A DNA stretch of 19,119 nt, from the UHGV virus genome UHGV-0349885; one strand, given 5' to 3'. The DNA is from a virus. A program made the position numbers and the translations under genes. The notes under the pieces are model-generated. The model saw only the letters and a list, made by a program, of their open reading frames with translations. It was not told the DNA's origin and did no database searches. Of the stretch, positions 2,684 to 14,402 are shown one piece after another; position 1 is the stretch's first letter, and every line of letters starts with the position of its first letter.

Positions 2684-3916
2684 ATGTCGGTGAAGCCTCT
2701 TACTGCATCAGAGGTAAAAAGCGCCAGGCCACGAGAGAAAGATTACGCTCTGTATGATGGGTTTGGGCTTTTGTTTTATGTGTCAAAAGCCGGTAGTAAA
2801 TCGTGGCGTTTTCGTTATGTACAACCTTTTACGAAGAAGCGGCAAACATACACTATAGGGCGATACCCGGATTTCACACTGGTTGAAGCCAGAGAAGAAC
2901 GCGATAAGCTGCGCAGATTGCTGGCACGGGATATAGATCCGTTATCATACCGGGCAGAAAAACGACTTGAGGCTAAAAGAAAGCACTTACAGACGTTTGG
3001 TGCTATTGCAATTGAATGGTTTAATTTTAAGAAAAAAGGTGATTTGCGGCTGTCGACTTTACAAACAATAGAGGAATTATTGAACAGACATATAATTCCT
3101 GTATTCGGAAATATGTACTTACATGATATGACCGCGCCAGTGGTTATTTCACTGCTTAATCAATTTTCTGATCGTAATGCTGTACTGGCTAAAATGCTGT
3201 CAAAAATTAATGAAATAATGAATTACTGTGTTAACTCTGGAGTGATTAAAAACAATCCGCTATCAACAATAAGAAAGGCATTTGTAATAAAAAAAGATAC
3301 ACCATTAAAAGCATTACCAGTTGAACGGTTATCAGAATTTTTGAACTGGTGGGAGACCACAAGTAATATCTCTATGAGATGCTCTCTTTTGTTCCAGATT
3401 GTCACTATGGTAAGACCATGTGAAGCAAGGGAGGCAAAATGGGAAGAAATTGATTTAGAAAATTGTATCTGGACAATTCCCCCTGAAAGAATGAAGTGTG
3501 GACGTGAACACGTAGTTCCGCTTTCACGGCAAGCCGTGGATATTTTAAGTGAAATGAATAAAATAAAATGTGGTAGCTATATATTTTTTTCTCCAAAGAA
3601 TCCGGGGAAAGCTATATCAAGCGTGTTGCGTCATAAGTGTTTCAGAGAGGGGCCATTTTATGGTGTTGCAACTGCTCACGGATTCCGGGCTATGTGGAGT
3701 ACGTTACTCAATGAAGAAGGGTTTAACCCAGATGTTATTGAGGCAGCATTGGCCCATAAAAGCGGCGATGCTATTCGTGATATTTATAATCGCTCAAAAT
3801 ATTTTGAGCAACGTAAGATCATGATGCAATGGATTGGTGATTTTGTTGATGATGCCAGAAAGGGAATTATCCGCCGTTCTGGTGGTCATCAGGGGCTAAA
3901 AGTAGTGAATATGTGA
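2684..3916 (+). CDS. int: Tyrosine site-specific integrase, P4-type
   Basis: ATG at 2684 with GGAG 8 nt upstream (ORF track begins at an upstream TTG, 2666). N-terminus MSVKPLTASEVKSARPREKDYALYDGFGLLFYVSKAGSKSWRFRY matches the P4-integrase N-terminal arm-binding domain; C-terminal region has HGFRAMW and RDIYNRSKY consistent with catalytic His/Arg/Tyr. Confidence 0.9.
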   Translation: MSVKPLTASEVKSARPREKDYALYDGFGLLFYVSKAGSKSWRFRYVQPFTKKRQTYTIGRYPDFTLVEAREERDKLRRLLARDIDPLSYRAEKRLEAKRKHLQTFGAIAIEWFNFKKKGDLRLSTLQTIEELLNRHIIPVFGNMYLHDMTAPVVISLLNQFSDRNAVLAKMLSKINEIMNYCVNSGVIKNNPLSTIRKAFVIKKDTPLKALPVERLSEFLNWWETTSNISMRCSLLFQIVTMVRPCEAREAKWEEIDLENCIWTIPPERMKCGREHVVPLSRQAVDILSEMNKIKCGSYIFFSPKNPGKAISSVLRHKCFREGPFYGVATAHGFRAMWSTLLNEEGFNPDVIEAALAHKSGDAIRDIYNRSKYFEQRKIMMQWIGDFVDDARKGIIRRSGGHQGLKVVNM

Positions 3917-3922
3917 GGCAAT

Positions 3923-4132
3923 ATGAGCACTAACGGCAATATTCTATTTACCAAAGACGTGATGGCAGAGCTTCGCTACGGTGCAATGAGTGCGTTTTAC
4001 GCTTTCATGAACGATGAAAAAAATAAATTTCCACGCCCCTTTAAGATTGGGCGACGCAACGCATGGCATCGTGATGATGTTGCATCGTGGCTGGAAAGAC
4101 AACGAAAACAAGCTAATGAATATCGTCAATGA
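3923..4132 (+). CDS. alpA: AlpA/Xis-family small DNA-binding protein (putative excisionase / transcriptional regulator)
   Basis: 69 aa, immediately after int, GAGG Shine-Dalgarno; sequence FTKDVMAELRYGAMSAFYAFMNDEKNKFPRPFKIGRRNAWHRDDVASWLE fits the AlpA/Vis/Xis HTH pattern; followed by a terminator. Confidence 0.7.
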   Translation: MSTNGNILFTKDVMAELRYGAMSAFYAFMNDEKNKFPRPFKIGRRNAWHRDDVASWLERQRKQANEYRQ

Positions 4133-4140
4133 TTGATATA

Positions 4141-4164
4141 CCCCGCGCAATGCGGGGTTTTTTG
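4141..4164 (+). terminator. Rho-independent terminator after alpA
   Basis: Hairpin CCCCGC-gcaat-GCGGGG (4141-4157) followed by TTTTTT. Confidence 0.7.
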
Positions 4165-4178
4165 TATATGAGGTAAAA

Positions 4179-4760
4179 ATGATGAATAAAAATATTGCCG
4201 TGACGGGCAAGGGTGACGCACGTCATGTGAAAAAAGTCTGTGATATTCGTGATCTGGTCGTTCTGCGCTTTGATGGCGTGAGCGTTCGCGTGGTGTATCT
4301 GAACGGCGATCCGTGGTTTGTTGCAAAGGATGTCTGCGCTGCGCTGGAACTGACCAATTCGCGTACGGCGTTGCAGATGCTTGATGATGATGAAAAGGGA
4401 GTAAATTTAACTTACACCCCCGGAGGAAATCAGAATATGAGCATTATCTCTGAGTCAGGTTTCTACAAACTAATAGTCCGCAGCCGCAAAGCAACGACGC
4501 CTGGCACATTTGCTCATCGTTTTAGTAACTGGGTATTCAGAAATGTGATACCGGGTATCAGAAAAACGGGGGCTTATGGTATCCCGTGGGGTGCATTACA
4601 GGATTTTTCCCGCCGCAAAGAGCAATATCAGATAAGTGCCAGCGAGAAGGGGAGGGCGCTACAGGCATGTAAGCGCAAAAAACGTGAACTGGAGGAAGAA
4701 GAAAAAAGGCTGATACGTGAATATCAGCCTGAGTTTTACTTTGGTGAGCGTATTCAGTAA
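4179..4760 (+). CDS. BRO-N / KilA-N domain protein (phage antirepressor-like)
   Basis: 193 aa; N-terminal region LRFDGVSVRVVYLNGDPWFVAKDVCAALELTNSRTALQMLDDDEKG ... IRKTGAY matches the conserved BRO-N antirepressor motif; GAGG SD; charged coiled-coil-like C-terminus. Confidence 0.75.
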   Translation: MMNKNIAVTGKGDARHVKKVCDIRDLVVLRFDGVSVRVVYLNGDPWFVAKDVCAALELTNSRTALQMLDDDEKGVNLTYTPGGNQNMSIISESGFYKLIVRSRKATTPGTFAHRFSNWVFRNVIPGIRKTGAYGIPWGALQDFSRRKEQYQISASEKGRALQACKRKKRELEEEEKRLIREYQPEFYFGERIQ

Positions 4761-5040
4761 CCACACGCGGTGCTGATTATACGGTACATCGTGTTAACCG
4801 AGAAGCTACCCACCAGCAAGGCAAAATCTTCTGCTAAAAAATGACATATGACCAGTCGTCCAGAAAGCATGAAATTTTACAAAAATGGAAAATGAAGATT
4901 TTTATTGTGCTAGTGGGTAAAAACAAAAAGCGCCCCGTTGCCGGAGCGCCCTTGCGAACAATTAACCTGCTGCGAAAAAATTGGATCAGTGCAAGGAAAT
5001 TATATCAACTGTGTGAAGAAGCGCCACAATTGCCGGATAA

Positions 5041-5073
5041 CAGGCAAAGAAAAGGCCACCTGTCACGGTGGCC
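5041..5073 (-). terminator. Minus-strand rho-independent terminator
   Basis: Perfect 7-bp stem GGCCACC/GGTGGCC (5054-5060 / 5067-5073) with 6-nt loop; on the minus strand it is followed by TTTTCTTTG; it lies downstream of the minus-strand regulator gene. Confidence 0.5.
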
Positions 5074-5392
5074 CTTCAACACAAATTGCGCGTTATCCCC
5101 AACGCATGAGCATCGCCAACAATGCCATATTTGCGGCTGGTGGGCAAAGCCTGAGCGATCCTGTGATTACAGGAACTACGGCATTGTCTCGGTTAGGTAG
5201 TGCTCAACTTTTTTTCAACTCTACATCGCAAGCACGCCGTAATAAATCGCCCTTATCGTTTGAGCAAAGACTATTTTTCTCAAAGCATGATATTAAGAGA
5301 AAGATTGTGATAATTAAAGCAACCATCATTGGTACATGTTTTTTTAATTTTAACATCTTTTACTCCTATGATTATCGCCATCGTTCTTCATG

Positions 5393-5590
5393 TTATGACG
5401 TGATTAATGATTTCTCGGATTCACTGGCCTTGCGCCGCTGGCGATATTCAACTTCTCGTTTTAATGCCGCAGTAACAAATTGCCCCGTACTTTCGCCAGG
5501 CATTTTTACCGCCTCAACATTGTTCATAACTTCATGCGGAACCCTTGCCGCAACGGTTTGTGATTTTGCGTTTACTGCTTTTGTCGCCAT
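5393..5590 (-). CDS. Small putative DNA-binding regulator (candidate repressor of the element; possibly ribbon-helix-helix-like)
   Basis: 65 aa, ATG at 5590 with GAGGGG SD; divergently oriented from the operator/promoter cluster at 5641-5692. Fold assignment is by eye only. Confidence 0.5.
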   Translation of the reverse strand: MATKAVNAKSQTVAARVPHEVMNNVEAVKMPGESTGQFVTAALKREVEYRQRRKASESEKSLITS

Positions 5591-5640
5591 GTGGTGTACC
5601 CCTCATAAAAAACAAATGCAGTATGCAGGAAAAAAAATAA

Positions 5641-5692
5641 GTGTTCAACACTTGACGTGTTTAACACCTGGGTTTAAATTGGTGTTCAACAC
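5641..5692. promoter_or_regulatory. Divergent promoter/operator region: three palindromic operators GTGTTCAACAC (5641-5651), GTGTTTAACAC (5657-5667), GTGTTCAACAC (5682-5692) overlapping a rightward sigma70-like promoter (-35 TTGACG 5652-5657, 17-bp spacer, -10 TAAATT 5675-5680)
   Basis: Three copies of an 11-bp perfect palindrome GTGTT-N-AACAC seen directly; they sit between the minus-strand regulator gene and the plus-strand early operon. Confidence 0.6.
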
Positions 5693-5789
5693 CTTGTTGG
5701 CGCAAGGTGCAGAAACGACGAAACCCGGCAGTGCGCTAACACTAACCGGGCTTCTAACCACCAACGATAGCGAAAGTATCGAGGCAGCT

Positions 5790-5993
5790 ATGAGAAATCA
5801 TACCACACACCCGCAAGGGCGGGACTCGCACGACCTGAATAAATACATCTGGCGTTTTATCGCCCTGAGCACGGCACAACCGCGCGTGATTACCATCGAG
5901 GCCACCAGCGAACAGGAAGCGCGTCAGCAATCTCCGGCTGGCTGCGTGATGGTATTCGCTGCCCGTATTCGCCAGGGGTCACATCATGCGTAA
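5790..5993 (+). CDS. Small early protein, Icd-like (P4 host cell-division inhibitor family) by motif
   Basis: ATG 5790 with GAGG SD 5 nt upstream; 67 aa; motif YIWRFIALS...RVITIEATSEQEARQQ...VFAARIRQG recalled as characteristic of Icd-like proteins of P4-type elements. Family assignment from memory only. Confidence 0.5.
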   Translation: MRNHTTHPQGRDSHDLNKYIWRFIALSTAQPRVITIEATSEQEARQQSPAGCVMVFAARIRQGSHHA

Positions 5994-6447
5994 AAACCGC
6001 TTGCAAAAAATTATCACGGGGCTGTATGCTTCCCCCGTCGCCCACATGGCGACCGGGTTTGACAGCCTGAATACATCTGGCGGACAGCCGCCCACATCCG
6101 ATAAGCGGTTTTTTTGTGTCCGTAAACCTACCCATACCCGCATTATGGCGGGGCGTAACGGGGGAGCCTTTGTGCTCGCTGGTTTCCAGATGACCAGTCT
6201 GTCAACCCTGTTACGTCTCGCCACCATGTTTGACAGCGTAGTAGCGAGACTCCTTAAAATTCATCTGGGAGCCTTTCACATGGCTGTATCCGCACGCCCT
6301 TATTTTGTCTGGCGCTTTATGCAGTGCCTGACAGACAGCATTGCAATATTCACCGTTACCGCTGCCACTGAGCGCGAAGCACGTGCACAGCTGCCGCACG
6401 CACATCTGATTTTTGTCGCCCGTATTCGTCAGGGGGTAGGCTTATGA
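5986..6447 (+). CDS. Icd/Ash-like paralog (153 aa) carrying the same C-terminal motif
   Basis: Start overlaps the previous stop; C-terminus YFVWRFMQCLTDSIAIFTVTAATEREARAQLPHAHLIFVARIRQG is a clear paralog of the 5790-5993 product. Confidence 0.5.
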   Translation: MRKNRLQKIITGLYASPVAHMATGFDSLNTSGGQPPTSDKRFFCVRKPTHTRIMAGRNGGAFVLAGFQMTSLSTLLRLATMFDSVVARLLKIHLGAFHMAVSARPYFVWRFMQCLTDSIAIFTVTAATEREARAQLPHAHLIFVARIRQGVGL

Positions 6448-6677
6448 GTCAGGAAATCACACTACAACAGGCAGCAGAACGCGCCCACCAAATCGAAGTT
6501 ATTTGCGCACTGGCAGAGGATTACCCTGGCATGATGACCGACAGCGAATCAGGGGCAATCATCGGCTTACTTAAACGCCTTAGCGGTGAGGTCTGCGTAT
6601 TCCTGAGCGATGAACAGGAAAGAAGAACGCTTATTTCTAACGAAAAAAAATGCGGAGGGGTACACCATGTGCAATAA
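6444..6677 (+). CDS. Hypothetical small protein (77 aa), translationally coupled in early operon
   Basis: ATG overlaps the preceding stop (ATGA); GGGGG SD upstream; no recognisable family. Confidence 0.5.
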   Translation: MSQEITLQQAAERAHQIEVICALAEDYPGMMTDSESGAIIGLLKRLSGEVCVFLSDEQERRTLISNEKKCGGVHHVQ

Positions 6678-6888
6678 CATCCGTCCGGACGCAGCAGCCG
6701 CCGCGCTCACTACGCTGATGCACGCGCTTATCGATATTGAATGCACTGCAGAGCTTGCGCAGGGAGAAGAACAGAAAGACCGGACACAGTTCGCCCTGGA
6801 ATGTATCCGATACATCGCAACGCGGTCGCTGAATGAAGCTAAAAATATTCTTGTTGCTGATTGTGAAAATGGGGGGGGTTATGCGTGA
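6667..6888 (+). CDS. Hypothetical small protein (73 aa from ATG 6667; ORF track offers an upstream start at 6610)
   Basis: Strong SD GGAGGGG 7 nt upstream of ATG 6667; stop overlaps the next start in the 8-mer ATGCGTGA. Confidence 0.45.
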   Translation: MCNNIRPDAAAAALTTLMHALIDIECTAELAQGEEQKDRTQFALECIRYIATRSLNEAKNILVADCENGGGYA

Positions 6889-7114
6889 TGATCGTTTTAA
6901 TTCCCTGAAACAGGAATTTTCCGGCGTTCCTGATGATGCGGCTGATGCGCTTTCGTCAATGCCAGAACTTATTAGAGCGGCTTTTTTCTTACTTTCCACG
7001 AGAGAATATAAATCAACGGGGCTTGATGTACTGAATATCGCCGCCGATTATGCGGAATATGTGGCAGAGGCGCGTTATAGAAGAAAATTTCCTGAGGATG
7101 TAAGCCATGCGTGA
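6881..7114 (+). CDS. Hypothetical small protein (77 aa, MRDDRFNSLKQEF...)
   Basis: ATG 6881 inside the overlap 8-mer ATGCGTGA; acidic and helical; no recognisable family. Confidence 0.45.
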   Translation: MRDDRFNSLKQEFSGVPDDAADALSSMPELIRAAFFLLSTREYKSTGLDVLNIAADYAEYVAEARYRRKFPEDVSHA

Positions 7115-7268
7115 TATTTACCACGAAACAATAGACCGCGCATTTCTTGCACTTTCTCACAGTGAAAACATGCTGGAAATATTGCGCATATGGCTTGAAA
7201 CACTTGGCGACAATGAACGCGACAAACAAAAAATCAAGAATTGCCACGGCATTAATAACGCTTCTTGA
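7107..7268 (+). CDS. Hypothetical small protein (53 aa, MRDIYHETIDRAFLALSHSENMLEILRIWLETLGDNERDKQKIKNCHGINNAS)
   Basis: ATG 7107 again inside an ATGCGTGA overlap with the preceding stop (7112-7114); translated by hand; competes with ORF-track 7147-7341, which needs a TTG start. Confidence 0.3.
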   Translation: MRDIYHETIDRAFLALSHSENMLEILRIWLETLGDNERDKQKIKNCHGINNAS

Positions 7269-7346
7269 GCCTGTAATAATGGAACTGCAAGAAATAGATC
7301 TATTGCACGACAGATATAAAGAACAGCACACCGGAGAATAAAAATA

Positions 7347-7646
7347 ATGAAACTTAAATATTCTGGCTTAACTGCCAGTGGCAACACTCACCCTAAATTT
7401 ACGCGCGGCGATATTTACCGCGACCAGTACGGCGGCACGGTAATGATTAAGGGCGTGGAAGAACGGCGCGTAACCTACCGCCGTGAAGGTTACGAATATG
7501 ATTGCGTGATGCCTGTTTATCAGTTCCGGCGTGATTTTTCTCTGGTACAGACCGCGCCGCATAACGTGTCCACCAGCAACGCCAGGGCACGGGCAAACAT
7601 CCAGAAGCTGAAAACCATGATTAACGGATTCAGGGGTAAAAAATGA
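7347..7646 (+). CDS. Hypothetical protein (99 aa) immediately upstream of and coupled to the primase gene
   Basis: ATG 7347 with GGAG upstream; stop overlaps the primase ATG (ATGA); no recognisable family. Confidence 0.5.
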   Translation: MKLKYSGLTASGNTHPKFTRGDIYRDQYGGTVMIKGVEERRVTYRREGYEYDCVMPVYQFRRDFSLVQTAPHNVSTSNARARANIQKLKTMINGFRGKK

Positions 7647-9397
7647 AACTGGCACCGAACGTAAAACAGCAGTCACGCGGCATAAAACACAAAGAAACAG
7701 AAGTCATTATTTTTGCGGGTAGTGATGCCTGGTCACACGCAAAACAATGGCAGGAACATGACGCGCGTATGGCCGGAGATAATGAGCCTCCTGTGTGGCT
7801 TGGGGAGCAGCAGTTATCCGAACTGGATAAGCTGCAAATTGTGCCGGAAGGCAGAAAATCCGTGCGCATATTCAGGGCCGGATATCTTGCGCCAGTAATG
7901 ATAAAGGCGATTGGTCAGAAGCTGGCGGCGGCAGGCGTACAGGATGCAAATTTTTACCCTGATGGTATGCACGGTCAGAAGGTGGAGAACTGGCGCGAAT
8001 ATCTGGCCCGTGAGCGCCAGAATCTTTCTGATGGTCTGGTCATTGAGCTTCCGGTAAAGCAAAAGGCGCAACTTTCGCAGATGGCGGACAGTGAGCGCGC
8101 GCAGCTGCTTGCCGATCGCTTTGATGGCGTTTGCGTACATCCTGAAAGTGAAATCGTTCACGTATGGCGCGGCGGGGTATGGTGTCCGGTCAGCACAATG
8201 GAACTTAGCCGCGAAATGGTGGCGATCTATTCAGAGCACAGGGCCACTTTCAGCAAGCGCGTAATCAATAACGCCGTGGAAGCGTTAAAAGTTATTGCCG
8301 AACCAATGGGCGAGCCGTCCGGCGATTTGTTGCCGTTCGCCAATGGTGCGCTTGACCTGAAAACGGGGGAATTTTCCCCGCACACGCCGGAGAACTGGAT
8401 CACCACGCACAACGGCATTGAGTACACGCCACCAGCACCAGGGGAGAACATCCGCGATAACGCGCCAAACTTTCATAAATGGCTTGAGCACGCAGCCGGA
8501 AAAGACCCGCGCAAGATGATGCGTATATGTGCCGCGCTGTACATGATTATGGCGAACCGGTACGACTGGCAGATGTTTATTGAGGCCACCGGAGACGGCG
8601 GGAGCGGTAAAAGTACATTCACACACATAGCCAGCCTTCTGGCAGGGAAACAGAACACGGTAAGCGCTGAAATGACATCGCTTGATGATGCTGGTGGACG
8701 TGCGCAGGTTGTCGGGAGTCGTCTTATCGTCCTGGCTGACCAGCCGAAATATACAGGCGAAGGAACGGGCATCAAGAAAATCACGGGCGGTGACCCCGTG
8801 GAAATTAACCCGAAATACGAAAAGCGTTTCACGGCGGTAATCAGGGCGGTGGTGCTGGCGACCAACAATAACCCGATGATATTCACCGAACGGGCCGGAG
8901 GTGTGGCACGTCGTCGCGTGATTTTCCGTTTCGACAATATCGTCAGTGAGGCCGAAAAAGACAGGGAGCTACCGGAAAAGATCGCGGCTGAAATCCCTGT
9001 CATTATCCGCCGATTGCTGGCGAACTTTACCGACCCTGAGAAGGCACGGGCTTTACTACTGGAACAGCGTGACGGTGATGAAGCTCTGGCAATAAAGCAA
9101 CAGACGGATCCGGTTATTGAGTTTTGCCAGTTCCTGAATTTTCTGGAGGAAGCGCGCGGCCTGATGATGGGGGGCGGTGGCGATTCAGTGAAGTACACGA
9201 CCAGGAACAGCCTTTACCGCGTCTATCTGGCGTTTATGGCATACGCAGGCAGGAGCAAACCGCTAAACGTAAATGACTTTGGCAAGGCTATGAAGCCAGC
9301 CGCGAAAGTTTACGGACATGAATATATTACGCGGAAAGTTAAGGGAGTAACGCAGACTAACGCAATAACAACAGACGATTGCGACGCGTTTTTATAA
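7643..9397 (+). CDS. Replication initiator: DNA primase / SF3-type NTPase (P4-alpha / D5 family C-terminal domain)
   Basis: 584 aa; Walker A EATGDGGSGKSTF, then RLIVLADQPKY and KKITGGDPVEINPKYEKRFTAVIRAVVLATNNNPMIF typical of the phage/plasmid primase P4-family C-terminal domain; the iteron origin lies directly downstream. Confidence 0.85.
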   Translation: MKLAPNVKQQSRGIKHKETEVIIFAGSDAWSHAKQWQEHDARMAGDNEPPVWLGEQQLSELDKLQIVPEGRKSVRIFRAGYLAPVMIKAIGQKLAAAGVQDANFYPDGMHGQKVENWREYLARERQNLSDGLVIELPVKQKAQLSQMADSERAQLLADRFDGVCVHPESEIVHVWRGGVWCPVSTMELSREMVAIYSEHRATFSKRVINNAVEALKVIAEPMGEPSGDLLPFANGALDLKTGEFSPHTPENWITTHNGIEYTPPAPGENIRDNAPNFHKWLEHAAGKDPRKMMRICAALYMIMANRYDWQMFIEATGDGGSGKSTFTHIASLLAGKQNTVSAEMTSLDDAGGRAQVVGSRLIVLADQPKYTGEGTGIKKITGGDPVEINPKYEKRFTAVIRAVVLATNNNPMIFTERAGGVARRRVIFRFDNIVSEAEKDRELPEKIAAEIPVIIRRLLANFTDPEKARALLLEQRDGDEALAIKQQTDPVIEFCQFLNFLEEARGLMMGGGGDSVKYTTRNSLYRVYLAFMAYAGRSKPLNVNDFGKAMKPAAKVYGHEYITRKVKGVTQTNAITTDDCDAFL

Positions 9398-9410
9398 TTT
9401 TTTGCAATGG

Positions 9411-9640
9411 CTGTCTACCCTGTCTACCTGAGTAAAGAAAAATACATTTAATTCAGTATATTAACTTAGGTAGACAGCCTTTTTTCACTGTCTACCTACT
9501 ATCTACCCTCTCTACCTGATTTTACCTGAATCAGACAGGGAGGTAGATACGGGGTAGATAGTGGATAAAAGCACTCTACCCCGCTGAAAGCCGCGCCATT
9601 ACTGGCATGAGAGCCAGTAAGGTAGATAAGGTAGACAAGG
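9411..9640. repeat. Iteron-type replication origin: about 11 copies of TCTACC / GGTAGA (6 forward, 5 reverse) in AT-rich context
   Basis: Forward copies at 9414, 9423, 9491, 9502, 9511, 9575; reverse copies at 9469, 9542, 9553, 9621, 9630; immediately 3' of the primase gene, the usual ori position in PICI/SaPI-like elements. Confidence 0.75.
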
Positions 9641-9685
9641 GGAGGCACAACTCAAAACTTTTTAAACGAGGGGGTAAAAATAAAA

Positions 9686-9943
9686 ATGCGCACATCAGGA
9701 AAACTTAATAATCAGAAGAAGCAGCATAACCGCGCCATTGACCTTACAGAGCACTGGCTGAGAGTGGCGATAAAAATCATCGACCGCAACACGGGGGAAG
9801 GATACGCGAAAGCACATCCCGACCTGATAAGCGCATTCATGACCACGGCGGCGGCAAACTTTGCCACGCTGACAGAACGGGAGATTGCCGAAGCGGAACA
9901 GGTAACAACCATCAACGTTAAAACCGGAGAGGTGGAATCATGA
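9686..9943 (+). CDS. Hypothetical protein (85 aa)
   Basis: ATG 9686 with GAGGGGG SD; stop overlaps the SSB-like start; no recognisable family. Confidence 0.5.
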   Translation: MRTSGKLNNQKKQHNRAIDLTEHWLRVAIKIIDRNTGEGYAKAHPDLISAFMTTAAANFATLTEREIAEAEQVTTINVKTGEVES

Positions 9944-10362
9944 CAGCACAGATAGCAGCTTACGGGCGGCTGGTGGACGACCCGCAGGTAAAACAGACCA
10001 GCAAGGGCACACCAATGACGCTGGCACGTATGGCGGTATCGTTGCCATGTAGTCAGGCGCAGGATGGGCAGGCTACGTTATGGCTATCGGTGATGGCATT
10101 TGGCAGACAGGCCGAAGCACTGGAAAGGCACCGCAAGGGTGAACTCCTGAGCGTGGCGGGTAACATGCAGATCAGCCAGTGGACTGGGCAGAACGGAGAA
10201 ACGCGGCAGGGCTGGCAGGTTATCGCAGACAGTGTAATCAGTGCGCGAACGGCGCGACTGGGCGGCAAAAAAGGTCAACTGGGCCAGGCTACTGACGCGC
10301 TGAACAGGGCAAAACAACAGGCGGGGAATGATGATCCGTACGGGGATAACATACCGTTTTAA
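9940..10362 (+). CDS. ssb: Single-stranded DNA-binding protein (SSB-like)
   Basis: 140 aa; OB-fold-like N-terminal region aligns by eye with E. coli SSB (LVDDPQVKQTSKGTPMTLARMAVS / LWLSVMAFGRQAEALERHRKGELLSVAGNMQISQWT); C-terminal acidic tail ends DDPYGDNIPF, like the SSB DDDIPF tail. Confidence 0.8.
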   Translation: MTAQIAAYGRLVDDPQVKQTSKGTPMTLARMAVSLPCSQAQDGQATLWLSVMAFGRQAEALERHRKGELLSVAGNMQISQWTGQNGETRQGWQVIADSVISARTARLGGKKGQLGQATDALNRAKQQAGNDDPYGDNIPF

Positions 10363-10377
10363 GCGACGAGTGACAGA

Positions 10378-10400
10378 AGCCGGAGCAATCCGGCTTTTTT
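10378..10400 (+). terminator. Rho-independent terminator after ssb
   Basis: Stem GCCGGA/TCCGGC (10379-10384 / 10389-10394), loop GCAA, T-run 10395-10400. Confidence 0.65.
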
Positions 10401-10448
10401 ACGGGTCCTCCTGGCGGGGTGGGCCTGAACACGGGGCGGGAGGCGCGG
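10401..10448 (+). other. Degenerate cos-like remnant (cosQ-like ACGGGTCCTCCTGG ... ACGGGGCGGGAGGCGCGG) lacking an intact cosN 12-mer
   Basis: Aligns with the cosQ/cosN region of the three intact cos sites, but GGGCGGCGACCT is replaced by GGGCGGGAGGCG; preceded by the same terminator-then-cosQ arrangement as at 12818-12857. Confidence 0.4.
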
Positions 10449-10580
10449 AAAAAAGCGCATTTTTGTGATTTTATCGTCATCATCATCATGAGCGTAATTT
10501 ATTGTTTTTAATTGTTTTGATGCAAAAAAGATGATGGTTGTGGTTAATTTTTGTTCGACATCTTTGCAGGCAGATAAAAA

Positions 10581-10616
10581 AGCCCGATAAGGTCAGAGGT
10601 GGCTTATCGGGCTTTT
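10581..10616. terminator. Strong hairpin with flanking A- and T-runs (possible bidirectional terminator)
   Basis: Perfect 11-bp stem AGCCCGATAAG/CTTATCGGGCT (10581-10591 / 10603-10613), preceded by AAAAAA and followed by TTTT. Confidence 0.5.
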
Positions 10617-10692
10617 GCATATGAGGCTTTTTGGTGCACTGACACACATGATCGGGATAATCATTTCATAATTTGCAACACAACTCAATATC

Positions 10693-10742
10693 ATTGCACA
10701 AAATGCAATACTGATTATAATCAGAGCTGGATGAACATCCAG
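10693..10742 (+). promoter_or_regulatory. Candidate promoter of the element capsid operon with three palindromes: ATTGCA-N5-TGCAAT (10693-10709), TGATTATAATCA (10713-10724), CTGGATG-AA-CATCCAG (10727-10742); -35 TTGCAC 10694-10699, -10 TATAAT 10716-10721
   Basis: Consensus -10 with 16-bp spacer seen directly; palindromes overlap the -35, -10 and +1 regions; AAGAGGAA SD and ATG 10778 follow. Confidence 0.4.
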
Positions 10743-10777
10743 TTATGATTTTTTAAGTCAAAGAGGAATTTCTTACT

Positions 10778-10984
10778 ATGGCTGAAGAGAAAAAAGGCGG
10801 TGTTTCGGTGTACATAAGCCCCGACATCGTAAAGGCGCTCAAGGAACGCCACCAGCAGAACGTAAAAGCAGGCATTGCGGCAGGACTTGATCCGCTGGCG
10901 ATGGTTGAGCCGTCAACAGGCTGGCAGGTACGCGCCTATTTACGCGCGGCGCTGGGTATGAATCAGGTTCACGGGGGTGAATAA
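10778..10984 (+). CDS. Hypothetical small protein (68 aa), first gene of the element capsid module
   Basis: ATG 10778 with AAGAGGAA SD; stop overlaps the capsid-gene start (TAATG); no recognisable family. Confidence 0.5.
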   Translation: MAEEKKGGVSVYISPDIVKALKERHQQNVKAGIAAGLDPLAMVEPSTGWQVRAYLRAALGMNQVHGGE

Positions 10985-12039
10985 TGACAGGCAAAGCAAC
11001 GGCACTTAACACTAACCAGCTTTTCATGTACCTGAATCGCGGGGATATTGCGGATTTTAAATTCAACCCTCTGTTTACTACGCTGTTTTTCCCGAACGTG
11101 GCGACATTCAGCACGCAAAACATCATGCTGGATACCCTGGACATTGAAGAAGTCACCATGTCGGCGTTTTGTTCGCCTATGGTTGGCAGCCAGGTACAGC
11201 GCGATAAAGGGTACGAAACCAGCACAATTAAACCTGGCTACATGAAGCCAAAGCACGAAATCGATCCAACAAAAACCATCATGCGCATGGCTGGAGAAGA
11301 TCCGGCACAGCTTAACGACCCTACCTACCGCCGTATGCGCCTGATTACTGGCAACATGCGCCGCCAGGTAAACGCCATTAAAGCGCGCGTGGAATGGCTG
11401 GCGGTGAATGCGATAACGACCGGAAAAAACATCATTGAGGGCGAAGGCATAGAACGCTATGAAATCGACTGGAAAATACCGGAAAACTGCATCATAGAGC
11501 AGGCCAAGGGTAAAAAATGGTCCGAGCAGGATAAAGACATGCACGACCCAATCTATGACATCGAGCTTTATGCTGATCAGGCTGGTTGCCCCGCAAACGT
11601 CATGATTATGGGCGCTGAGGTATGGCGCACGTTACGCAGCTTTAAAAAATTCCGTGAGCTGTACGATCTTTCCCGTGGTTCAGAGTCCGCCGCCGAACTG
11701 GCCTGTAAAAACCTGGGCGAAGTGGTGAGCTTTAAAGGCTATCTGGGCGATATTGCCCTTATCGTCTATTCCGGCAAATACACTGACAGCGACGGCACAG
11801 AAAAATATTTCCTTGAGCCTGATTTGCTGGTTCTGGGCAACACCAACAATAAAGGGCTGGTGGCCTATGGTGCGATTATGGATCAGGACGCAGTAAGAAC
11901 GGGCGCAACGCAAAACATGTTTTACCCGAAAAACTGGATTGGGGACGGCGATCCGGCGATTGAGTACGTGCAGACGCACAGCGCACCGCAGCCGGTTCCG
12001 GCAGATATTCGTAAATTTGTTACCGTCAAAATTGGTTAA
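10984..12039 (+). CDS. Major capsid protein homolog (lambda gpE-like), element-encoded and diverged from the prophage copy
   Basis: 351 aa; matches lambda gpE (from memory) at FKFNPLFTTLFF (lambda FKFDPLFLRLFF), PGYMKPKHEIDP (PGYVKPKHEVNP) and C-terminal YPKNW..GDPA...SAP; N-terminus differs from the prophage gpE start at 19064. Confidence 0.85.
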   Translation: MTGKATALNTNQLFMYLNRGDIADFKFNPLFTTLFFPNVATFSTQNIMLDTLDIEEVTMSAFCSPMVGSQVQRDKGYETSTIKPGYMKPKHEIDPTKTIMRMAGEDPAQLNDPTYRRMRLITGNMRRQVNAIKARVEWLAVNAITTGKNIIEGEGIERYEIDWKIPENCIIEQAKGKKWSEQDKDMHDPIYDIELYADQAGCPANVMIMGAEVWRTLRSFKKFRELYDLSRGSESAAELACKNLGEVVSFKGYLGDIALIVYSGKYTDSDGTEKYFLEPDLLVLGNTNNKGLVAYGAIMDQDAVRTGATQNMFYPKNWIGDGDPAIEYVQTHSAPQPVPADIRKFVTVKIG

Positions 12040-12050
12040 CGGGGGATTCT

Positions 12051-12386
12051 ATGGACACTCCATACATTGAGTTATTTGCAGGCAGTCAGCAGGTCGCCAC
12101 GACGCTGGTACATTTTGCCGCTGATGCTGGCGTTATTCAGGAATTTACCCCGCTGATGCTGGCGGACAATGGCGAGTTTAAGCCGTGGGATGGTAAGGAA
12201 TCTGGCAAGGCTGTTTATCTGACCTCGTACCCTGTGGACACGTCAAAGCAGAAATCAGCACAGTGTTACAAGACGGGGATATTCAATATTGCCGCCGTTA
12301 ACTGGCCTGAGAGCGTCGACACCGATGCGAAAAAATGCGCCGCCTTTGCGGGTTCTGGCGTATCCGTTCAGCCGCTGGCCCGATAA
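12051..12386 (+). CDS. Head decoration protein homolog (lambda gpD-like), element-encoded
   Basis: 111 aa; shares TPLML..WDG..YKTGxF..WPES..KK.AAFAGS with lambda gpD and with the prophage gpD at 18659-19006. Confidence 0.75.
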   Translation: MDTPYIELFAGSQQVATTLVHFAADAGVIQEFTPLMLADNGEFKPWDGKESGKAVYLTSYPVDTSKQKSAQCYKTGIFNIAAVNWPESVDTDAKKCAAFAGSGVSVQPLAR

Positions 12387-12398
12387 GCAGGGGGAACG

Positions 12399-12812
12399 AT
12401 GGCAACGAATGAAAGCATCATGACGCTACCGCTGGCGAGTAAATTTAAAGCCGAAGCGCGGGCAATGGCTGACAGAGGTTTATCAACCTATGAGGCCGTA
12501 TATCAACTAAACAAACTGGAAGAGCAGGACAAGCCGCGCGCTGATGCGATTATGGCGCTTGATGAATCTGGCGACTATCAGCCGCTGTTACGTGCAATGG
12601 CAAACGTGCCTTGTATCGATGTTGGTACGGCTAAAAGCATCCTTAGCATGACCATAGAGCAGGAACGTCCGAAGGTTGCGCCGGAACTTACTGCAGCCTT
12701 TGAAAACTTTATGGACATGCACAGCCCGCAAGCCGTATCAGCTGGCATGGCATACGATGGCAGAAACCAGGGCGATGACGGCGACATCGATCGCATACTG
12801 AAAACCATCTGA
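12399..12812 (+). CDS. Scaffold-like protein (Nu3 / gpC C-terminal-domain homolog), element-encoded; candidate capsid-size-redirecting scaffold
   Basis: 137 aa; C-terminus TAAFENFMDMHSPQAVSAGMAYDGRNQGDDGD parallels the prophage gpC-Nu3 C-terminus TALFEHFMANHSPAAVRGGVSQTSADGDAD; middle region resembles one of the internal repeats of the prophage protein. Confidence 0.6.
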   Translation: MATNESIMTLPLASKFKAEARAMADRGLSTYEAVYQLNKLEEQDKPRADAIMALDESGDYQPLLRAMANVPCIDVGTAKSILSMTIEQERPKVAPELTAAFENFMDMHSPQAVSAGMAYDGRNQGDDGDIDRILKTI

Positions 12813-12817
12813 GACAA

Positions 12818-12842
12818 GGCCGGAGAAATCCGGCTTTTTTTT
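12818..12842 (+). terminator. Rho-independent terminator after the element capsid module
   Basis: Stem GCCGGA/TCCGGC (12819-12824 / 12829-12834), loop GAAA, eight-T run 12835-12842. Confidence 0.65.
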
Positions 12843-12966
12843 ATGGGTCCTTTCCGGCATATGGACCCGTTACGGGGCGGCGACCTCGCGGGTTTTCGCT
12901 ATTTATGACGTTTTTCCGTGAAGGTGACACCACCACCACTTGATTAATATTTAACCATGCGGTTAA
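12843..12966 (+). other. Element cos site A (forward): cosQ-like GGGTCCTTTCCGG 12845-12857, cosN GGGCGGCGACCT 12875-12886, I2-like CGCGGGTTTTCGCTATTTATGA, divergent cosB with TTAACC-atgc-GGTTAA
   Basis: About 75-bp core near-identical to the prophage cos and to lambda cos; flanking cosB differs from the prophage cosB; lies directly upstream of the Nu1-like gene at 12976. Confidence 0.85.
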
Positions 12967-12975
12967 GGTAACATT

Positions 12976-13416
12976 ATGATTGATAAAGCTTGTTTTGTAA
13001 GTCAGCAGGAAATAGCTGAACATTTCAAGGTTAACAGAACCACTATTCGCGCATGGACCAAACAGGGGATGCCGTATCTTAATGCGGATCGCGGAAAGTC
13101 TGGCGGTTATCACATCGGGCATACATTGCTTTGGTCTTCAGGTAAAAGCCGTCTTGAGGCCATCAGATATCACGTAGAAACCAGTGCGCTGGAAAAAATT
13201 ATGTTTGCCAGGCTGCTTTCATCTGAGCGTGACGAGTACTCCAGTGAAGAAACAGAACATCGATTTGATGAAGGTTTGCAGATTTACGGCTATTCACCGG
13301 AAGATGTGAGCAAGGCACGAAATAAAATGGCTGGCTTTCTGGCTGGGTGGCGTCATGCCGTAAGCGTTCGCCGTGCCAGCATGGAACAATCAGTCGTTAC
13401 AGAACAGCAAAGTTAA
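12976..13416 (+). CDS. Terminase-small-subunit-like protein (Nu1 N-terminal wHTH homolog with unrelated C-terminus); candidate packaging-redirection factor
   Basis: 146 aa; N-terminus VSQQEIAEHFKVNRTTIRAWTKQGMPYLNADRGKSGG aligns with prophage Nu1 [34 protein letters not shown]; positioned just 3' of cos-A, as Nu1 is relative to cos. Confidence 0.7.
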   Translation: MIDKACFVSQQEIAEHFKVNRTTIRAWTKQGMPYLNADRGKSGGYHIGHTLLWSSGKSRLEAIRYHVETSALEKIMFARLLSSERDEYSSEETEHRFDEGLQIYGYSPEDVSKARNKMAGFLAGWRHAVSVRRASMEQSVVTEQQS

Positions 13417-13445
13417 AAATCACTTTCTGTTACGCCATCAAATAC

Positions 13446-13597
13446 GCAATACAACAACCACGTATTTTTTTAAAACTATTTGATTCAATTAGCATTTTTT
13501 TATTTTTAGCATCAAAAAAACACTATCAGGTTGTTGTATTGCTCTTTATTTTTACTTAGTTATCAAATGGATATGACAAACAATTAAACAACAACCT
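13446..13597. repeat. Perfect 14-bp inverted repeat GCAATACAACAACC (13446-13459) / GGTTGTTGTATTGC (13529-13542) around a 69-bp AT-rich spacer, plus a third ACAACAACC copy (13589-13597); candidate cosB R-elements of cos-B
   Basis: Repeats read directly from the sequence; they occupy the cosB side of the inverted cos-B in an R3 / AT-rich / R2 / R1-like layout. Confidence 0.5.
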
Positions 13598-13610
13598 CCC
13601 TCTAAAAAAG

Positions 13611-13680
13611 CTCATAAATAGCGAAAAACCGCGAGGTCGCCGCCCCGTAACGGGCCATAATTCCAGGAAGGACCCGACGA
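13611..13680 (-). other. Element cos site B (inverted orientation): cosN reverse-complement AGGTCGCCGCCC at 13634-13645, I2-like 13611-13633, cosQ-like GGAAGGACCC 13666-13675
   Basis: Reverse complement matches the cosQ-cosN-I2 core of cos-A and the prophage cos almost base for base. Confidence 0.8.
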
Positions 13681-13709
13681 CACCAGACTATCAGAGCGAT
13701 GGGGGCACA

Positions 13710-13991
13710 ATGACAGAAGCCGAACTACTGGGATTAATCCGCCGCGTTACCGGAATCAGCCAGCAGCATGACGAACAGGCCACACAGCCGGACAGCGTGA
13801 CAGCCGAAAATTACGCGCGTGTTGTTGCTGAGGTGATGCGCCGTGATGGTATCCAGCTTAATGATATGGATATGCGCAACATACGGATCCGCGTTCTTGA
13901 AATGCTGGCCTACAATCGCCGCGTGGCACTGTATCGTGAAACGGAGAAAATTACGTACCACTGGAAGAAGCCGGAGCGGTTACGGCGTTAA
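13710..13991 (+). CDS. Hypothetical protein (93 aa)
   Basis: ATG 13710; no recognisable family; followed immediately by the GTGAC repeat array. Confidence 0.45.
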   Translation: MTEAELLGLIRRVTGISQQHDEQATQPDSVTAENYARVVAEVMRRDGIQLNDMDMRNIRIRVLEMLAYNRRVALYRETEKITYHWKKPERLRR

Positions 13992-13997
13992 CTTGTG

Positions 13998-14041
13998 GTG
14001 ACATACCGTGACGGGAGTGACAACCAGTGACACACAGTGAC
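13998..14041. repeat. Array of five GTGAC(A) direct repeats at 9-10 bp spacing (starts 13998, 14008, 14017, 14027, 14037)
   Basis: Seen directly; helical phasing suggests same-face binding of one protein; the reverse complement TGTCACT resembles the lambda Int arm-type consensus (AGTCACTAT, from memory). Confidence 0.5.
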
Positions 14042-14391
14042 AAAAAAAGACGGTATTTAAATAGGGTGGGTGTTTAATACCCTAGGGGGATCGGAATCCC
14101 TACACCCCATTGCTTATGAGACCGCATTCCCCGTCAAATTTTTACACCCGCGAAATTAAAAAAATGCGTCACGCTGGTGGGTGTGATGCTGATATGGGGA
14201 TTTCCATAACCGAGATTAAGCAAAGAGCAAACTTGCCCCCTGTAGCCAAACATAGTAACCATCTAAGCCCCTTTTTTATCTTAATTTAGCTGATTTTTCC
14301 GTGTTTATACGGACTAGAATTTGTACCAAACGCAAAAGCGATGTCTTCTTTATTCCTTTAAATTCAATTTATTATCTTGCTTGTTTGCTTT

Positions 14392-14402
14392 CATATCTGG
14401 AC
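14392..14402 (+). repeat. attR core: right copy of 11-bp direct repeat CATATCTGGAC
   Basis: Identical to 2503-2513; terminase homology resumes exactly here (HIWTAYSPFTTWVQIV). Confidence 0.75.

What the first reader, a model, noticed from the sequence alone, without database searches (positions are those of the whole stretch)
13446..13680. Second complete cos site in inverted orientation with its own, different R-element set
cos-B (cosN at 13634-13645, reverse strand) is a full cosQ-cosN-I2 core pointing opposite to cos-A, about 750 bp away, so the two form a large inverted duplication around the Nu1-like gene. On the cosB side of cos-B lie three ACAACAACC-type elements (two as a perfect 14-bp inverted repeat, 13446-13459 and 13529-13542, around a 69-bp AT-rich spacer; one more at 13589-13597). 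That layout resembles lambda R3 / IHF site / R2 / R1 but with a different recognition sequence. No small-terminase gene reads away from cos-B. Possible meanings: a cos for a second helper type, a device allowing packaging in either direction, or a substrate for inversion by recombination between the cos cores.
Basis: partly seen in the sequence, partly recalled or inferred. Interest (0 to 1): 0.7.

Follow-up and report, generated by a model that had tools for sequence, protein, structure and literature searches.

The report
Second, inverted cos site of a phage satellite
The inverted second packaging site is real and matches the published "cos2" of E. coli phage satellites, but here its terminase-binding half is a complete copy of the packaging signal of a different group of lambda-like prophages, so it most likely lets the satellite be packaged by a second kind of helper phage.

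Summary
The window holds three lambda-type cos cores. The one at 13634-13645 (- strand) is inverted, 759 bp from cos-A, and has three exact ACAACAACC elements on its cosB side.

The "Nu1-like" gene between them is RppA, 142/144 identical to EcCICFT073 c1503. So cos-A / rppA / cos-B is the published cos1 / rppA / cos2 module of EcCICFT073-family PICIs. The whole 11.9-kb satellite is a helper-embedded PICI inserted in the terL (gpA) gene of a phage-21-type prophage.

New here:
- The cosB half of cos-B differs completely from that of EcCICFT073 cos2.
- Counted from its cosN, the repeats lie at bp 50-58, 109-117 (inverted) and 187-195. This is the lambda R3 / I1 / R2 / R1 geometry.
- The same array, followed by a real terS gene, occurs in prophages of 220 of 5426 complete E. 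coli genomes.
- EcCICFT073 cos2 carries the cosB of another prophage class, found in 1141 of 5426 genomes and in the PhiR12 phages.
- Closely related modules occur in both orientations, so inversion across the cos cores has happened. It was not seen for this G-type module.

Best reading, inferred and untested: cos-B is an Rpp-independent packaging site for a second helper class.

The parts
13646..13680 (-). cosQ-proximal part of cos-B (cos2), the outer arm of the inverted repeat
   Evidence: Part of the 71-nt inverted repeat. It aligns with cos-0, cos-A and the equivalent region of phage cos sites.
13634..13645 (-). cosN of cos-B (GGGCGGCGACCT on the - strand)
   Evidence: Exact match. Identical to the lambda cohesive end.
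13597..13633 (-). I2-like segment between cosN and R3 (bp 13-49 from cosN)
   Evidence: Mean column conservation is 0.93 across 40 unique G-type cos sequences. It aligns with lambda bp 13-45.
13588..13596 (-). R3-equivalent element (GGTTGTTGT on the - strand, bp 50-58 from cosN)
   Evidence: Exact 9-mer. It sits at the same position in phage cos sites that are followed by terS. Lambda R3 lies at bp 50-65 (PMC9026076).
13560..13566 (-). IHF-like core TTGATAA (bp 80-86), in the position of lambda I1
   Evidence: Invariant in all 40 unique G-type cos sequences although it was not part of the search pattern. That it is an IHF site is an inference from a partial match to the consensus.
13529..13537 (-). 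R2-equivalent element (ACAACAACC on the - strand, bp 109-117), inverted relative to R3
   Evidence: The 50-nt spacing from R3 is the same as in the phage sites.
13451..13459 (-). R1-equivalent element (GGTTGTTGT on the - strand, bp 187-195). Homology to phage cos ends just beyond it, at about 13446
   Evidence: It was not in the search pattern, yet its conservation is 0.997 against 0.80 for the adjacent spacer. In phages a terS start follows at bp 230-242; here the rppA 3' end follows.
12976..13416 (+). rppA (redirecting phage packaging protein), lying between the two cos sites
   Evidence: 142/144 identical to EcCICFT073 c1503. PDB RppC 6hlk, E = 5.7e-31. The ATG is at bp 102 from cosN-A, the distance reported for PICI-C (PMC9026076).
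12845..12939 (+). cos-A = cos1. cosQ-proximal part 12845-12874, cosN 12875-12886, I2-like part, and the proposed R3-PICI (bp 48-65 = 12922-12939)
   Evidence: Almost identical to EcCICFT073 cos1. Published experiments show that the cos1 cosB confers Rpp-dependent packaging (PMC6739421). The R3-PICI position is a published proposal (PMC9026076).
12816..12837 (+). Intrinsic-terminator-like hairpin plus T run between the capsid operon and cos-A
   Evidence: Conserved in EcCICFT073 and NCTC86.
13710..13991 (+). Conserved 93-aa ORF flanking the cosQ side of cos-B
   Evidence: Present in all module variants. phrog_1561, unknown function.
2503..14402 (+). The whole satellite (helper-embedded PICI) that carries the module, bounded by direct repeats CATATCTGGAC at 2503-2513 and 14392-14402 inside the prophage terL gene
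   Evidence: The prophage flanks are collinear with intact terL of CFT073 phage 4 at 97%, with a 14-bp overlap.
823..834 (+). cosN of the resident helper prophage (cos-0), with phage-21-type R elements and Nu1 (1011-1559) downstream

Best explanation
cos-B is the 'cos2' of an EcCICFT073-family phage-inducible chromosomal island (PICI).

The packaging module of this family is a convergent pair of lambda-type cos sites with the specificity gene rppA between them.
- cos-A (cos1) has a satellite-specific cosB. It is read by the RppA-TerS heterocomplex, which hijacks lambda/phi80/21-type helpers. This is published experimental work.
- cos-B keeps the common cosQ-cosN-I2 core, but its cosB half is a complete R3 / IHF-like / R2 / R1 array captured from a different packaging-specificity class of lambdoid prophages. 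I call this class 'G-type' (GGTTGTTGT elements). Its TerS is related to N15 gp1.

Inferred mechanism: the unmodified terminase of a G-type helper binds these R elements, nicks cosN-B and packages the satellite concatemer leftwards, through rppA, cos-A and the capsid genes, without needing Rpp. The satellite can then use two helper classes.

The cosB half is an exchangeable cassette. EcCICFT073 has a 'C-type' cosB, this window has the G-type, and some relatives have both and no rpp. Because the two cores are inverted repeats, the segment between them can also be inverted. This has happened in relatives.
For: Shown here:
- The same architecture is present in CFT073, with cosN at 15559 (+) and 16298 (-) flanking rppA. 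RppA identity is confirmed.
- The cosB half of cos-B is unrelated to that of EcCICFT073 cos2.
- The repeat positions are bp 50-58, 109-117 (inverted) and 187-195. This matches lambda R3 / R2 / R1 in geometry and orientation.
- Of 76 IMG/VR cos sites with this array, about 55 are followed by a Nu1-family terS starting at bp 230-242. About 17 are PICI sites followed by a converging rpp or an rpp remnant.
- The phage version lies under 'terminase small subunit | terminase large subunit' annotations in 220 of 5426 complete E. coli genomes. The protein is a TerS (phrog_57/1790), 45% identical to N15 gp1.
- R1 and the TTGATAA core were not part of the search pattern, yet they are essentially invariant while the spacers vary.
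- The cosB of EcCICFT073 cos2 is likewise a genuine phage cosB followed by terS. It occurs in phages PhiR12_1-5 and in 1141 of 5426 genomes.
- Rpp-less modules carry C-type and G-type cosB facing each other.
- G- and C-type TerS lack the lambda Nu1 segment around residues 50-70, where the Rpp-escape mutations Y50, A55, E65 and D68-R70 map (PMC6739421).

Published:
- A cloned cos2 supports transfer.
- cos1, but not cos2, responds to RppA.
- Only lambda, phi80 and phage 4 were tested as helpers. None of them is C- or G-type (PMC6092414, PMC6739421).
Against: - No experiment shows that a G-type phage packages from cos-B.
- In EcCICFT073, deleting cos2 did not lower transfer by lambda or phi80; it raised it (PMC6092414). 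So cos2 is dispensable, or even costly, with the helpers tested.
- The helper this satellite is embedded in is 21-type, not G-type.
- No co-residence of G-type prophages with G-type PICIs was seen in the capped IMG/VR sample (inspection of genome ids). That test was weak.
- No isolated phage with a G-type cosB is present in the phage collection.
- R3 and R2 are invariant by construction, because the search pattern required them.
- That Rpp cannot bind G- or C-type TerS is inferred from an alignment only.
Confidence: 0.6

Rival explanations
1. cos-B is an inert by-product. It would be a scar of recombination between the satellite and a G-type phage at the shared cos core, carried along without function, or mildly deleterious.
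For: - Deleting cos2 in EcCICFT073 increases transfer by lambda and slightly by phi80, and cos2 does not respond to RppA (PMC6092414, PMC6739421).
- No terS follows it.
- The cosB half has clearly been swapped by recombination.
Against: - cosQ-proximal part, cosN, I2, all three R elements, their spacing and the TTGATAA core are intact in 44 complete genomes and in several IMG/VR contigs.
- R1 is conserved at 0.997 against 0.80 for the neighbouring spacer.
- An inverted second cos is kept in every module variant examined: rppA, terS or no gene between the sites.
- Homology to the phage stops exactly after R1, so the whole recognition array is retained and nothing else.
Confidence: 0.2
2. The convergent cos pair is primarily an invertible cassette. 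Recombination between the inverted cores, or terminase cutting of both cosN sites followed by re-ligation of the inner fragment, flips rppA and swaps which cosB faces which flank. The inner fragment would have two identical cohesive ends, so it could re-ligate either way. This would act as a switch of rpp expression or of packaging direction.
For: - A strain (NZ_AP022049.1) has the 727-bp inner segment 100% identical to the reverse complement of the EcCICFT073 segment, with collinear flanks and rppA on the opposite strand.
- 15 of 5426 complete genomes match the flipped arrangement, against about 24 C-type modules in direct orientation.
- Rpp-less modules occur in both orientations at 99.4-99.6% identity.
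- The crossovers map to the roughly 25-bp identical core that includes cosN.
Against: - No flipped copy of the G-type module of this window was found, against 44 direct copies.
- The 12 flipped genomes listed, of the 15 counted, share one allele, so they may represent one inherited event.
- There is no invertase gene nearby.
- There are no read-level data.
- The promoter scan gives nothing above chance, so the effect of orientation on rpp expression is unknown.
Confidence: 0.12
3. cos-B is an interference device aimed at G-type phages. It would be a decoy site that attracts their terminase and causes unproductive cleavage or competition for packaging, rather than a site that serves the satellite's own spread.
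For: - PICIs of this family interfere with helper packaging (PMC6739421).
- cos-B carries a full recognition array for a terminase that the satellite does not otherwise manipulate.
Against: - A complete cos in a replicating concatemer would itself be packaged, so decoy action and self-transfer are hard to separate.
- There is no evidence of interference with G-type phages.
Confidence: 0.08

Closest known systems
EcCICFT073 cos1 / rppA / cos2 packaging module (Fillol-Salom et al. 2018, PMC6092414; 2019, PMC6739421)
   Same: - Same gene order: capsid E-like, D-like, ORF137, terminator, cos1, rppA, inverted cos2, ORF93.
- cos1 and rppA are almost identical (RppA 142/144).
- The second cosN is on the opposite strand downstream of rppA.
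   Different: - The roughly 190-bp cosB half of cos2 is replaced. It has GGTTGTTGT-type elements here and CATGTCCGG-type elements in EcCICFT073.
- This element is inserted in a prophage terL gene instead of the roxA/phoQ chromosomal site.
- The papers state that no phage cosB could be identified at either site. Here both cos2 variants are matched to real prophage cosB-terS units.
Bacteriophage lambda cos (cosQ-cosN-I2-R3-I1-R2-R1) and the phage-21 / N15 specificity variants
   Same: - Identical 12-nt cohesive end and I2 region.
- R-type elements at bp 50-58, 109-117 (inverted) and 187-195, with an IHF-like core between the first two.
- The same logic of specificity classes defined by matching R sequence and TerS (PMC9026076).
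   Different: - The R sequence (GGTTGTTGT) differs from lambda (CGTTTCC) and phage 21 (CATGTCGG).
- R1 lies about 35 bp further out than in lambda.
- In the satellite copy no terS follows.
- The cognate TerS is closest to N15 gp1 (45%), yet N15 is reported to have only an R3 (PMC9026076).
Helper-embedded PICIs (Mageeney et al. 2023, PMC10111431)
   Same: [quoted passage not shown]
- Gene A is one of the reported target genes.
- The target gene is split and a short direct repeat lies at the junctions.
   Different: - That paper describes a single shared cos-like stretch and says the model element lacks terS. It does not describe the second inverted cos or its cosB type.
SaPIbov4 / SaPIbov5-type cos satellites of Staphylococcus
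   Same: These satellites carry helper-type cos sites in place of, or beside, a terS strategy. SaPIbov4 is cited as also having two putative cos sites (PMC6092414).
   Different: They belong to an unrelated cos family and unrelated hosts. No sequence comparison was made here.

Membership tests
Lambda-type cos site | 12-nt cosN cohesive-end sequence with the conserved flanking I2 segment | tested here: met
   Exact GGGCGGCGACCT at 13634-13645 (-). The following roughly 33 nt align with the lambda left end.
Lambda-type cos site | cosQ-side sequence upstream of cosN, needed for termination | tested here: inconclusive
   The 30 nt upstream are conserved with cos-0, cos-A and phage sites. The lambda cosQ element itself was not aligned, because only the left end of lambda was fetched.
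Lambda-type cos site | cosB with repeated TerS-binding R elements in R3 (bp ~50) / R2 (inverted) / R1 layout and an IHF site between R3 and R2 | tested here: met
   Three exact 9-mers at bp 50-58, 109-117 (inverted) and 187-195. A conserved TTGATAA core lies at bp 80-86. That it binds IHF is inferred.
Lambda-type cos site | Cognate terS gene immediately downstream of cosB | tested here: not met
   The converging rppA 3' end follows R1. In the matching prophages, terS starts at bp 230-242.
Lambda-type cos site | Cleavage and packaging by a terminase | not testable with these tools
   This needs transfer assays or end mapping. Published data exist only for the EcCICFT073 cos2 variant with lambda and phi80 (PMC6092414).
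EcCICFT073-family PICI packaging module (cos1-rpp-cos2) | rpp gene encoding a winged-HTH protein homologous to RppA/B/C | tested here: met
   99% identical to RppA. RppC structure 6hlk, E = 5.7e-31.
EcCICFT073-family PICI packaging module (cos1-rpp-cos2) | cos1 directly upstream of rpp, with a non-phage cosB | tested here: met
   Identical to EcCICFT073 cos1 over cosQ-cosN-cosB. The rpp ATG is at bp 102.
EcCICFT073-family PICI packaging module (cos1-rpp-cos2) | Second cos downstream of rpp in inverted orientation | tested here: met
   Window 12875 (+) / 13634 (-); CFT073 locus 15559 (+) / 16298 (-).
EcCICFT073-family PICI packaging module (cos1-rpp-cos2) | Same cos2 cosB sequence as the type element | tested here: not met
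   No similarity across window 13420-13610. The R-element type is different.
Helper-embedded PICI | Integration inside a prophage late gene, co-oriented with it, with a direct repeat at both junctions | tested here: met
   The terL halves lie at 1489-2513 and 14389-15348. The core CATATCTGGAC is present at both junctions. Collinear with an intact phage 4 terL.
Helper-embedded PICI | Integrase belonging to the specific clade described by Mageeney et al. | not tested
   Only the Pfam domains of the integrase were checked. No phylogeny was made.
Site-specific invertible DNA switch (Hin/Gin/Cin or Fim type) | Inverted repeats flanking a segment found in both orientations | tested here: inconclusive
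   Both orientations exist for C-type and rpp-less relatives. Only one orientation was found for this G-type module, 44 against 0.
Site-specific invertible DNA switch (Hin/Gin/Cin or Fim type) | Dedicated invertase or recombinase acting on the repeats | tested here: not met
   No serine invertase is present. The only recombinase is the tyrosine integrase at the far end of the element.

The most novel reading that the evidence does not exclude
The convergent cos pair is a modular, terminase-operated device. Each cosB half would be a swappable 'helper key', acquired by recombination with helper phages at the shared cosN core. Terminase cutting at both inverted cosN sites would release an inner fragment with two identical cohesive ends that can re-ligate in either orientation. 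This would be a recombinase-free flip that reshuffles which key, and whether rpp, is linked to which arm of the satellite.
Probability: 0.15. Interest if true: 0.8.

Novelty: new variant of a known kind. Interest (0 to 1): 0.5.

Why it matters
The purpose of the second cos site of E. coli PICIs has been unexplained since 2018. It is dispensable with lambda and phi80, and the authors could find no phage cosB in it.

Both known versions of its cosB half are exact copies of the packaging signals of common but little-studied prophage classes, found in about 21% and 4% of complete E. coli genomes. This gives a concrete, testable answer: the satellite would carry one Rpp-dependent site for lambda/21/phi80-type helpers and one plain phage-type site for a class that Rpp probably cannot hijack.

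It also:
- defines two new lambda-family packaging specificities (R sequence plus cognate TerS);
- shows that the packaging module evolves by cassette exchange and inversion at cosN;
- predicts which phages should mobilise these virulence-associated islands.

Tried and rejected
- Pfam on the 146-aa gene gave only sub-threshold HTH hits. Its identity came from PDB and from direct comparison with CFT073.
- blastn of the module against 50,697 phage records matched only the roughly 80-bp cos cores. Phage-type G cos-terS queries also found no isolated phage. The G class is therefore known only from prophages and IMG/VR contigs.
- Enterobacter phage MStein-2023a (H31) was fetched, but it is unannotated and was not pursued.
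- The promoter scan around rppA and the cos sites was no better than chance, 3 found against 2.1 expected. No claim is made about rpp transcription.
- No tRNA genes were found.
- I checked whether G-type PICIs and G-type phages occur in the same IMG genome by comparing contig ids. There was no overlap, but both scans were capped at 120 loci, so this is uninformative.
- I considered that cos-B might serve the resident helper. Rejected, because that prophage has phage-21-type R elements.
- I considered phi80 as the source of the EcCICFT073 cos2 cosB. Rejected, because only the PhiR12 phages match it over its full length.
- One protein alignment call failed on coordinates and one script failed on a file name. 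Both were redone.

Full report
**What is in the window**

The window is a lambdoid prophage interrupted by a satellite.
- Left flank: Rz at 102-569; a lambda-type cos with cosN at 823-834; Nu1 at 1011-1559; and the ATPase half of the large terminase gene from 1489.
- Right flank: the nuclease half of the same gene at 14377-15348, followed by W, portal, protease and a D-like gene.
- Both flanks are 97% identical to, and collinear with, prophage 4 of E. coli CFT073. Their ends overlap by 14 bp on that phage's intact terL.
- The insertion is bounded by the direct repeat CATATCTGGAC at 2503-2513 and 14392-14402, at about codon 325 of terL.

The 11.9-kb insert encodes a tyrosine integrase, AlpA, a Bro-N protein, DUF4222, a D5-type primase, SSB, a lambda E-like capsid protein, a D-like decoration protein and a 137-aa protein. 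This is the gene set of gram-negative PICIs. The position inside a prophage late gene is the helper-embedded PICI configuration described by Mageeney et al. (PMC10111431). Only one complete E. coli genome, strain AREA_492, holds the whole element.

**Check of the observation**

- The cohesive-end sequence GGGCGGCGACCT occurs three times: 823 (+), 12875 (+) and 13634 (-). The expectation is 0.09.
- The two satellite copies sit in a 71-nt inverted repeat, 86% complementary, at 12845-12915 and 13605-13675.
- All three cores align with each other and with the lambda left end through cosN and the I2-like stretch. They diverge from about bp 36 onwards.
- ACAACAACC occurs exactly three times in 19 kb, all within 146 bp next to cos-B. 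The expectation is 0.20, and no shuffle reached three.
- The 14-bp perfect inverted repeat and the 69-bp AT-rich spacer are as described.
- The third copy is at 13588-13596, one base off the stated position.
- No terS-like ORF reads away from cos-B.

**What the module is**

The gene between the two sites was called 'Nu1-like'. It is 142/144 identical to c1503 of CFT073, which is RppA. It also matches the crystal structure of RppC (6hlk) at E = 5.7e-31.

In CFT073 the same order is found: capsid, decoration protein, 137-aa ORF, cosN (+) at 15559, rppA, cosN (-) at 16298, then a 93-aa ORF. cos-A plus rppA of the window are almost identical to the CFT073 sequence. The rppA start lies at bp 102 from cosN-A, the distance given for PICI-C by Murialdo and Feiss (PMC9026076). 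So cos-A is the published cos1 and cos-B is the published cos2.

The published experiments show the following.
- Both cloned sites allow transfer by lambda and phi80.
- cos1 is required for transfer, and its cosB confers stimulation by RppA.
- Deleting cos2 does not reduce transfer; it increases it with lambda.
- Deleting both sites abolishes transfer.

The authors state that they could not identify a phage cosB at either site. They do not discuss orientation. The 2022 review does not mention cos2 at all. No other paper in the searchable library deals with cos2.

**What differs here**

Between the end of rppA and the I2 segment of cos-B (window about 13420-13610), the window and strain NCTC86 share no similarity with EcCICFT073. 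The cosB half of cos2 has therefore been replaced.

Counting from cosN-B on the minus strand:
- GGTTGTTGT lies at bp 50-58.
- ACAACAACC, the inverted form, lies at bp 109-117.
- GGTTGTTGT lies again at bp 187-195.

Lambda has R3 at bp 50-65 (PMC9026076). Read from the lambda left end fetched, R2 lies inverted about 50 bp further on and R1 has the orientation of R3. The geometry therefore matches, apart from an R1 about 35 bp further out.

**Does a phage family with these elements exist?**

Yes.
- 76 of them have GGGCGGCGACCT 37-39 nt upstream.
- In about 55 of these, a Nu1-family gene (MAFLLNKSDMA...) starts at bp 230-242 on the same strand. These are ordinary phage cos-terS units.
- About 17 are followed instead by a converging rpp or an rpp remnant. 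These are satellite copies like the one in the window.

Homology between satellite and phage copies ends right after the third element (GGTTGTTGTATTGC). The satellite therefore holds the whole recognition array and nothing more.

The phage unit lies under 'terminase small subunit | terminase large subunit' annotations in 220 of 5426 complete E. coli genomes. The protein falls in the terminase small subunit families phrog_57 and phrog_1790. Its closest characterised relative is N15 gp1, at 45%. No isolated phage in the GenBank collection has this cosB.

Across 40 unique sequences, the third element and a TTGATAA core at bp 80-86 are essentially invariant, although neither was part of the search pattern. 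The R2-R1 spacer averages 0.80.

**The EcCICFT073 version is of the same kind**

Read from its cosN, EcCICFT073 cos2 has CATGTCCGG at bp 50-58, CCGGACATG at bp 110-118 and a further CCGGACAT.
- The same array is followed by a terS (VATQTEVARHL...) starting at bp 196 in about 78 of 101 IMG/VR sites.
- It occurs in the isolated phages PhiR12_1 to PhiR12_5 at 96.6%.
- It occurs in 1141 of 5426 complete genomes.

So cos2 is, in both variants, a complete phage-type cos of a specificity class other than lambda/phi80/21. None of the helpers used in the published work belongs to either class (PMC6739421).

In an alignment, the G- and C-type TerS lack the stretch of lambda Nu1 around residues 50-70. 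This stretch holds the Rpp-escape mutations and part of the Rpp contact (PMC6739421). This suggests, but does not show, that Rpp cannot capture these proteins.

**Variants of the module**

Normalised to the flanking 137-aa and 93-aa ORFs, four arrangements were seen.
- cos1 - rppA - G-type cos2, 759 bp. Found in the window, NCTC86, eight IMG/VR loci, and 44 complete genomes in all.
- cos1 - rppA - C-type cos2, 739 bp. Found in EcCICFT073 and five IMG/VR loci.
- A 524-bp form without rpp, keeping only a 76-nt 3' remnant. C-type and G-type cosB face each other.
- In O157:H7, a convergent cos pair flanking a full 180-aa terS with yet another R sequence.

A convergent second cos is thus a constant of this satellite family. 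The cosB halves and the gene between them are exchangeable.

**Inversion**

I built the hypothetical flipped form of the window's module and searched the complete genomes with it. Fifteen genomes matched at 82% coverage.
- In one of them (NZ_AP022049.1) the 727-bp inner segment is 100% identical to the reverse complement of the EcCICFT073 inner segment.
- In that genome the flanks are collinear and rppA lies on the opposite strand to the capsid genes.
- Direct-orientation rppA modules number 68, of which 44 are G-type. That leaves roughly 24 direct against 15 inverted for the C-type.

The rpp-less form also occurs in both orientations. Four loci of each were found, with the inner 512 bp 99.4-99.6% identical in reverse and the left flanks 99-100% identical.

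Crossovers map to the roughly 25-bp identical core that includes cosN. No flipped G-type module was found, and the 12 flipped genomes listed, of the 15 counted, share one allele. The data therefore show at least two inversion events, not an active switch.

Two mechanisms fit. One is homologous recombination between the cores. The other follows from the chemistry of cos ends: cutting both inverted cosN sites leaves an inner fragment with two identical cohesive ends, which can re-anneal either way round. I could not tell them apart.

**Conclusion and weights**

- The identification of cos-B as the cos2 of an EcCICFT073-family PICI is secure.
- That its cosB half is a captured, intact recognition array of a separate prophage class is shown by sequence.
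- That it works as an Rpp-independent packaging site for that class, widening the helper range, is my preferred inference, with a confidence of about 0.6.
- The main rival is an inert or mildly harmful recombination scar (0.2). The published cos2 deletion phenotype supports it. The intact array, its conservation and the constancy of a second cos in all variants argue against it.
- An invertible-cassette role (0.12) and a decoy role (0.08) remain possible.

The feature is a new variant of a known kind. The arrangement itself is published. The G-type cosB, the match of both cos2 variants to real prophage cos-terS units, and the natural inversion isomers do not appear in the literature I could search.

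Noticed in passing
window 780-1010: There is a third lambda-type cos (cosN 823-834, +), belonging to the resident prophage. Its R elements are of phage-21 type: CGTGTCGG at about 869, CCGACATG at about 934 and CATGTCGG at about 975. Nu1 follows at 1011-1559. It has the same orientation as cos-A, about 12 kb upstream. A terminase starting here on an unexcised composite would therefore meet cos-A in the cutting orientation.
   Followed up: partly
window 2503-2513 and 14392-14402: The satellite splits the prophage large terminase gene at about codon 325. The direct repeat CATATCTGGAC lies at both junctions. The helper cannot make TerL until the satellite excises. Only one complete E. coli genome (AREA_492, NZ_CP123335.1) has the whole element at this site.
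   Followed up: partly
window 12399-12812: The conserved 137-aa ORF just upstream of cos-A matches the C-terminal part of phage head maturation protease families (phrog_53 positions 495-567, E = 1e-8). In lambda this part corresponds to the nested scaffold protein. The satellite may therefore carry capsid, decoration and scaffold-like genes together.
   Followed up: no
L239 (NZ_CP017438.1, E. coli O157:H7 strain 2159) 12275-13153: A PICI at the roxA/phoQ site has the same convergent cos pair but a full-length 180-aa terS in place of rpp. Its cosB has GGTTGGTGT/ACACCAACC-like elements. This is a satellite-encoded small terminase strategy within the same module frame.
   Followed up: partly
L013 8955-9490, L007 4192-4727 and similar IMG/VR loci: Some PICI modules have lost rpp, keeping only a 76-nt 3' remnant. 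They consist only of a C-type and a G-type phage cosB facing each other, 524 bp between the two cosN sites. They occur in both orientations.
   Followed up: partly
L238 (NZ_AP022049.1) 13235-13985: In the flipped EcCICFT073-type module, both cos copies carry the same cosQ-proximal variant (ggaattatggccc). This gives a longer perfect inverted repeat, about 46 bp, than in EcCICFT073. It may explain why this lineage inverted.
   Followed up: no
L020 1545-2290, L126 6144-6900: Two lambdoid packaging-specificity classes are common as E. coli prophages (220 and 1141 of 5426 complete genomes). Their R elements are GGTTGTTGT and CATGTCCGG. Their TerS proteins share a nearly identical C-terminal, TerL-binding half but have different DNA-binding domains. 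This indicates domain swapping between terS genes.
   Followed up: partly
window 9940-10362 versus L001 11121-11543: The satellite's SSB gene is intact in the window but is annotated as a pseudogene (internal stop) in the NCTC86 relative.
   Followed up: no
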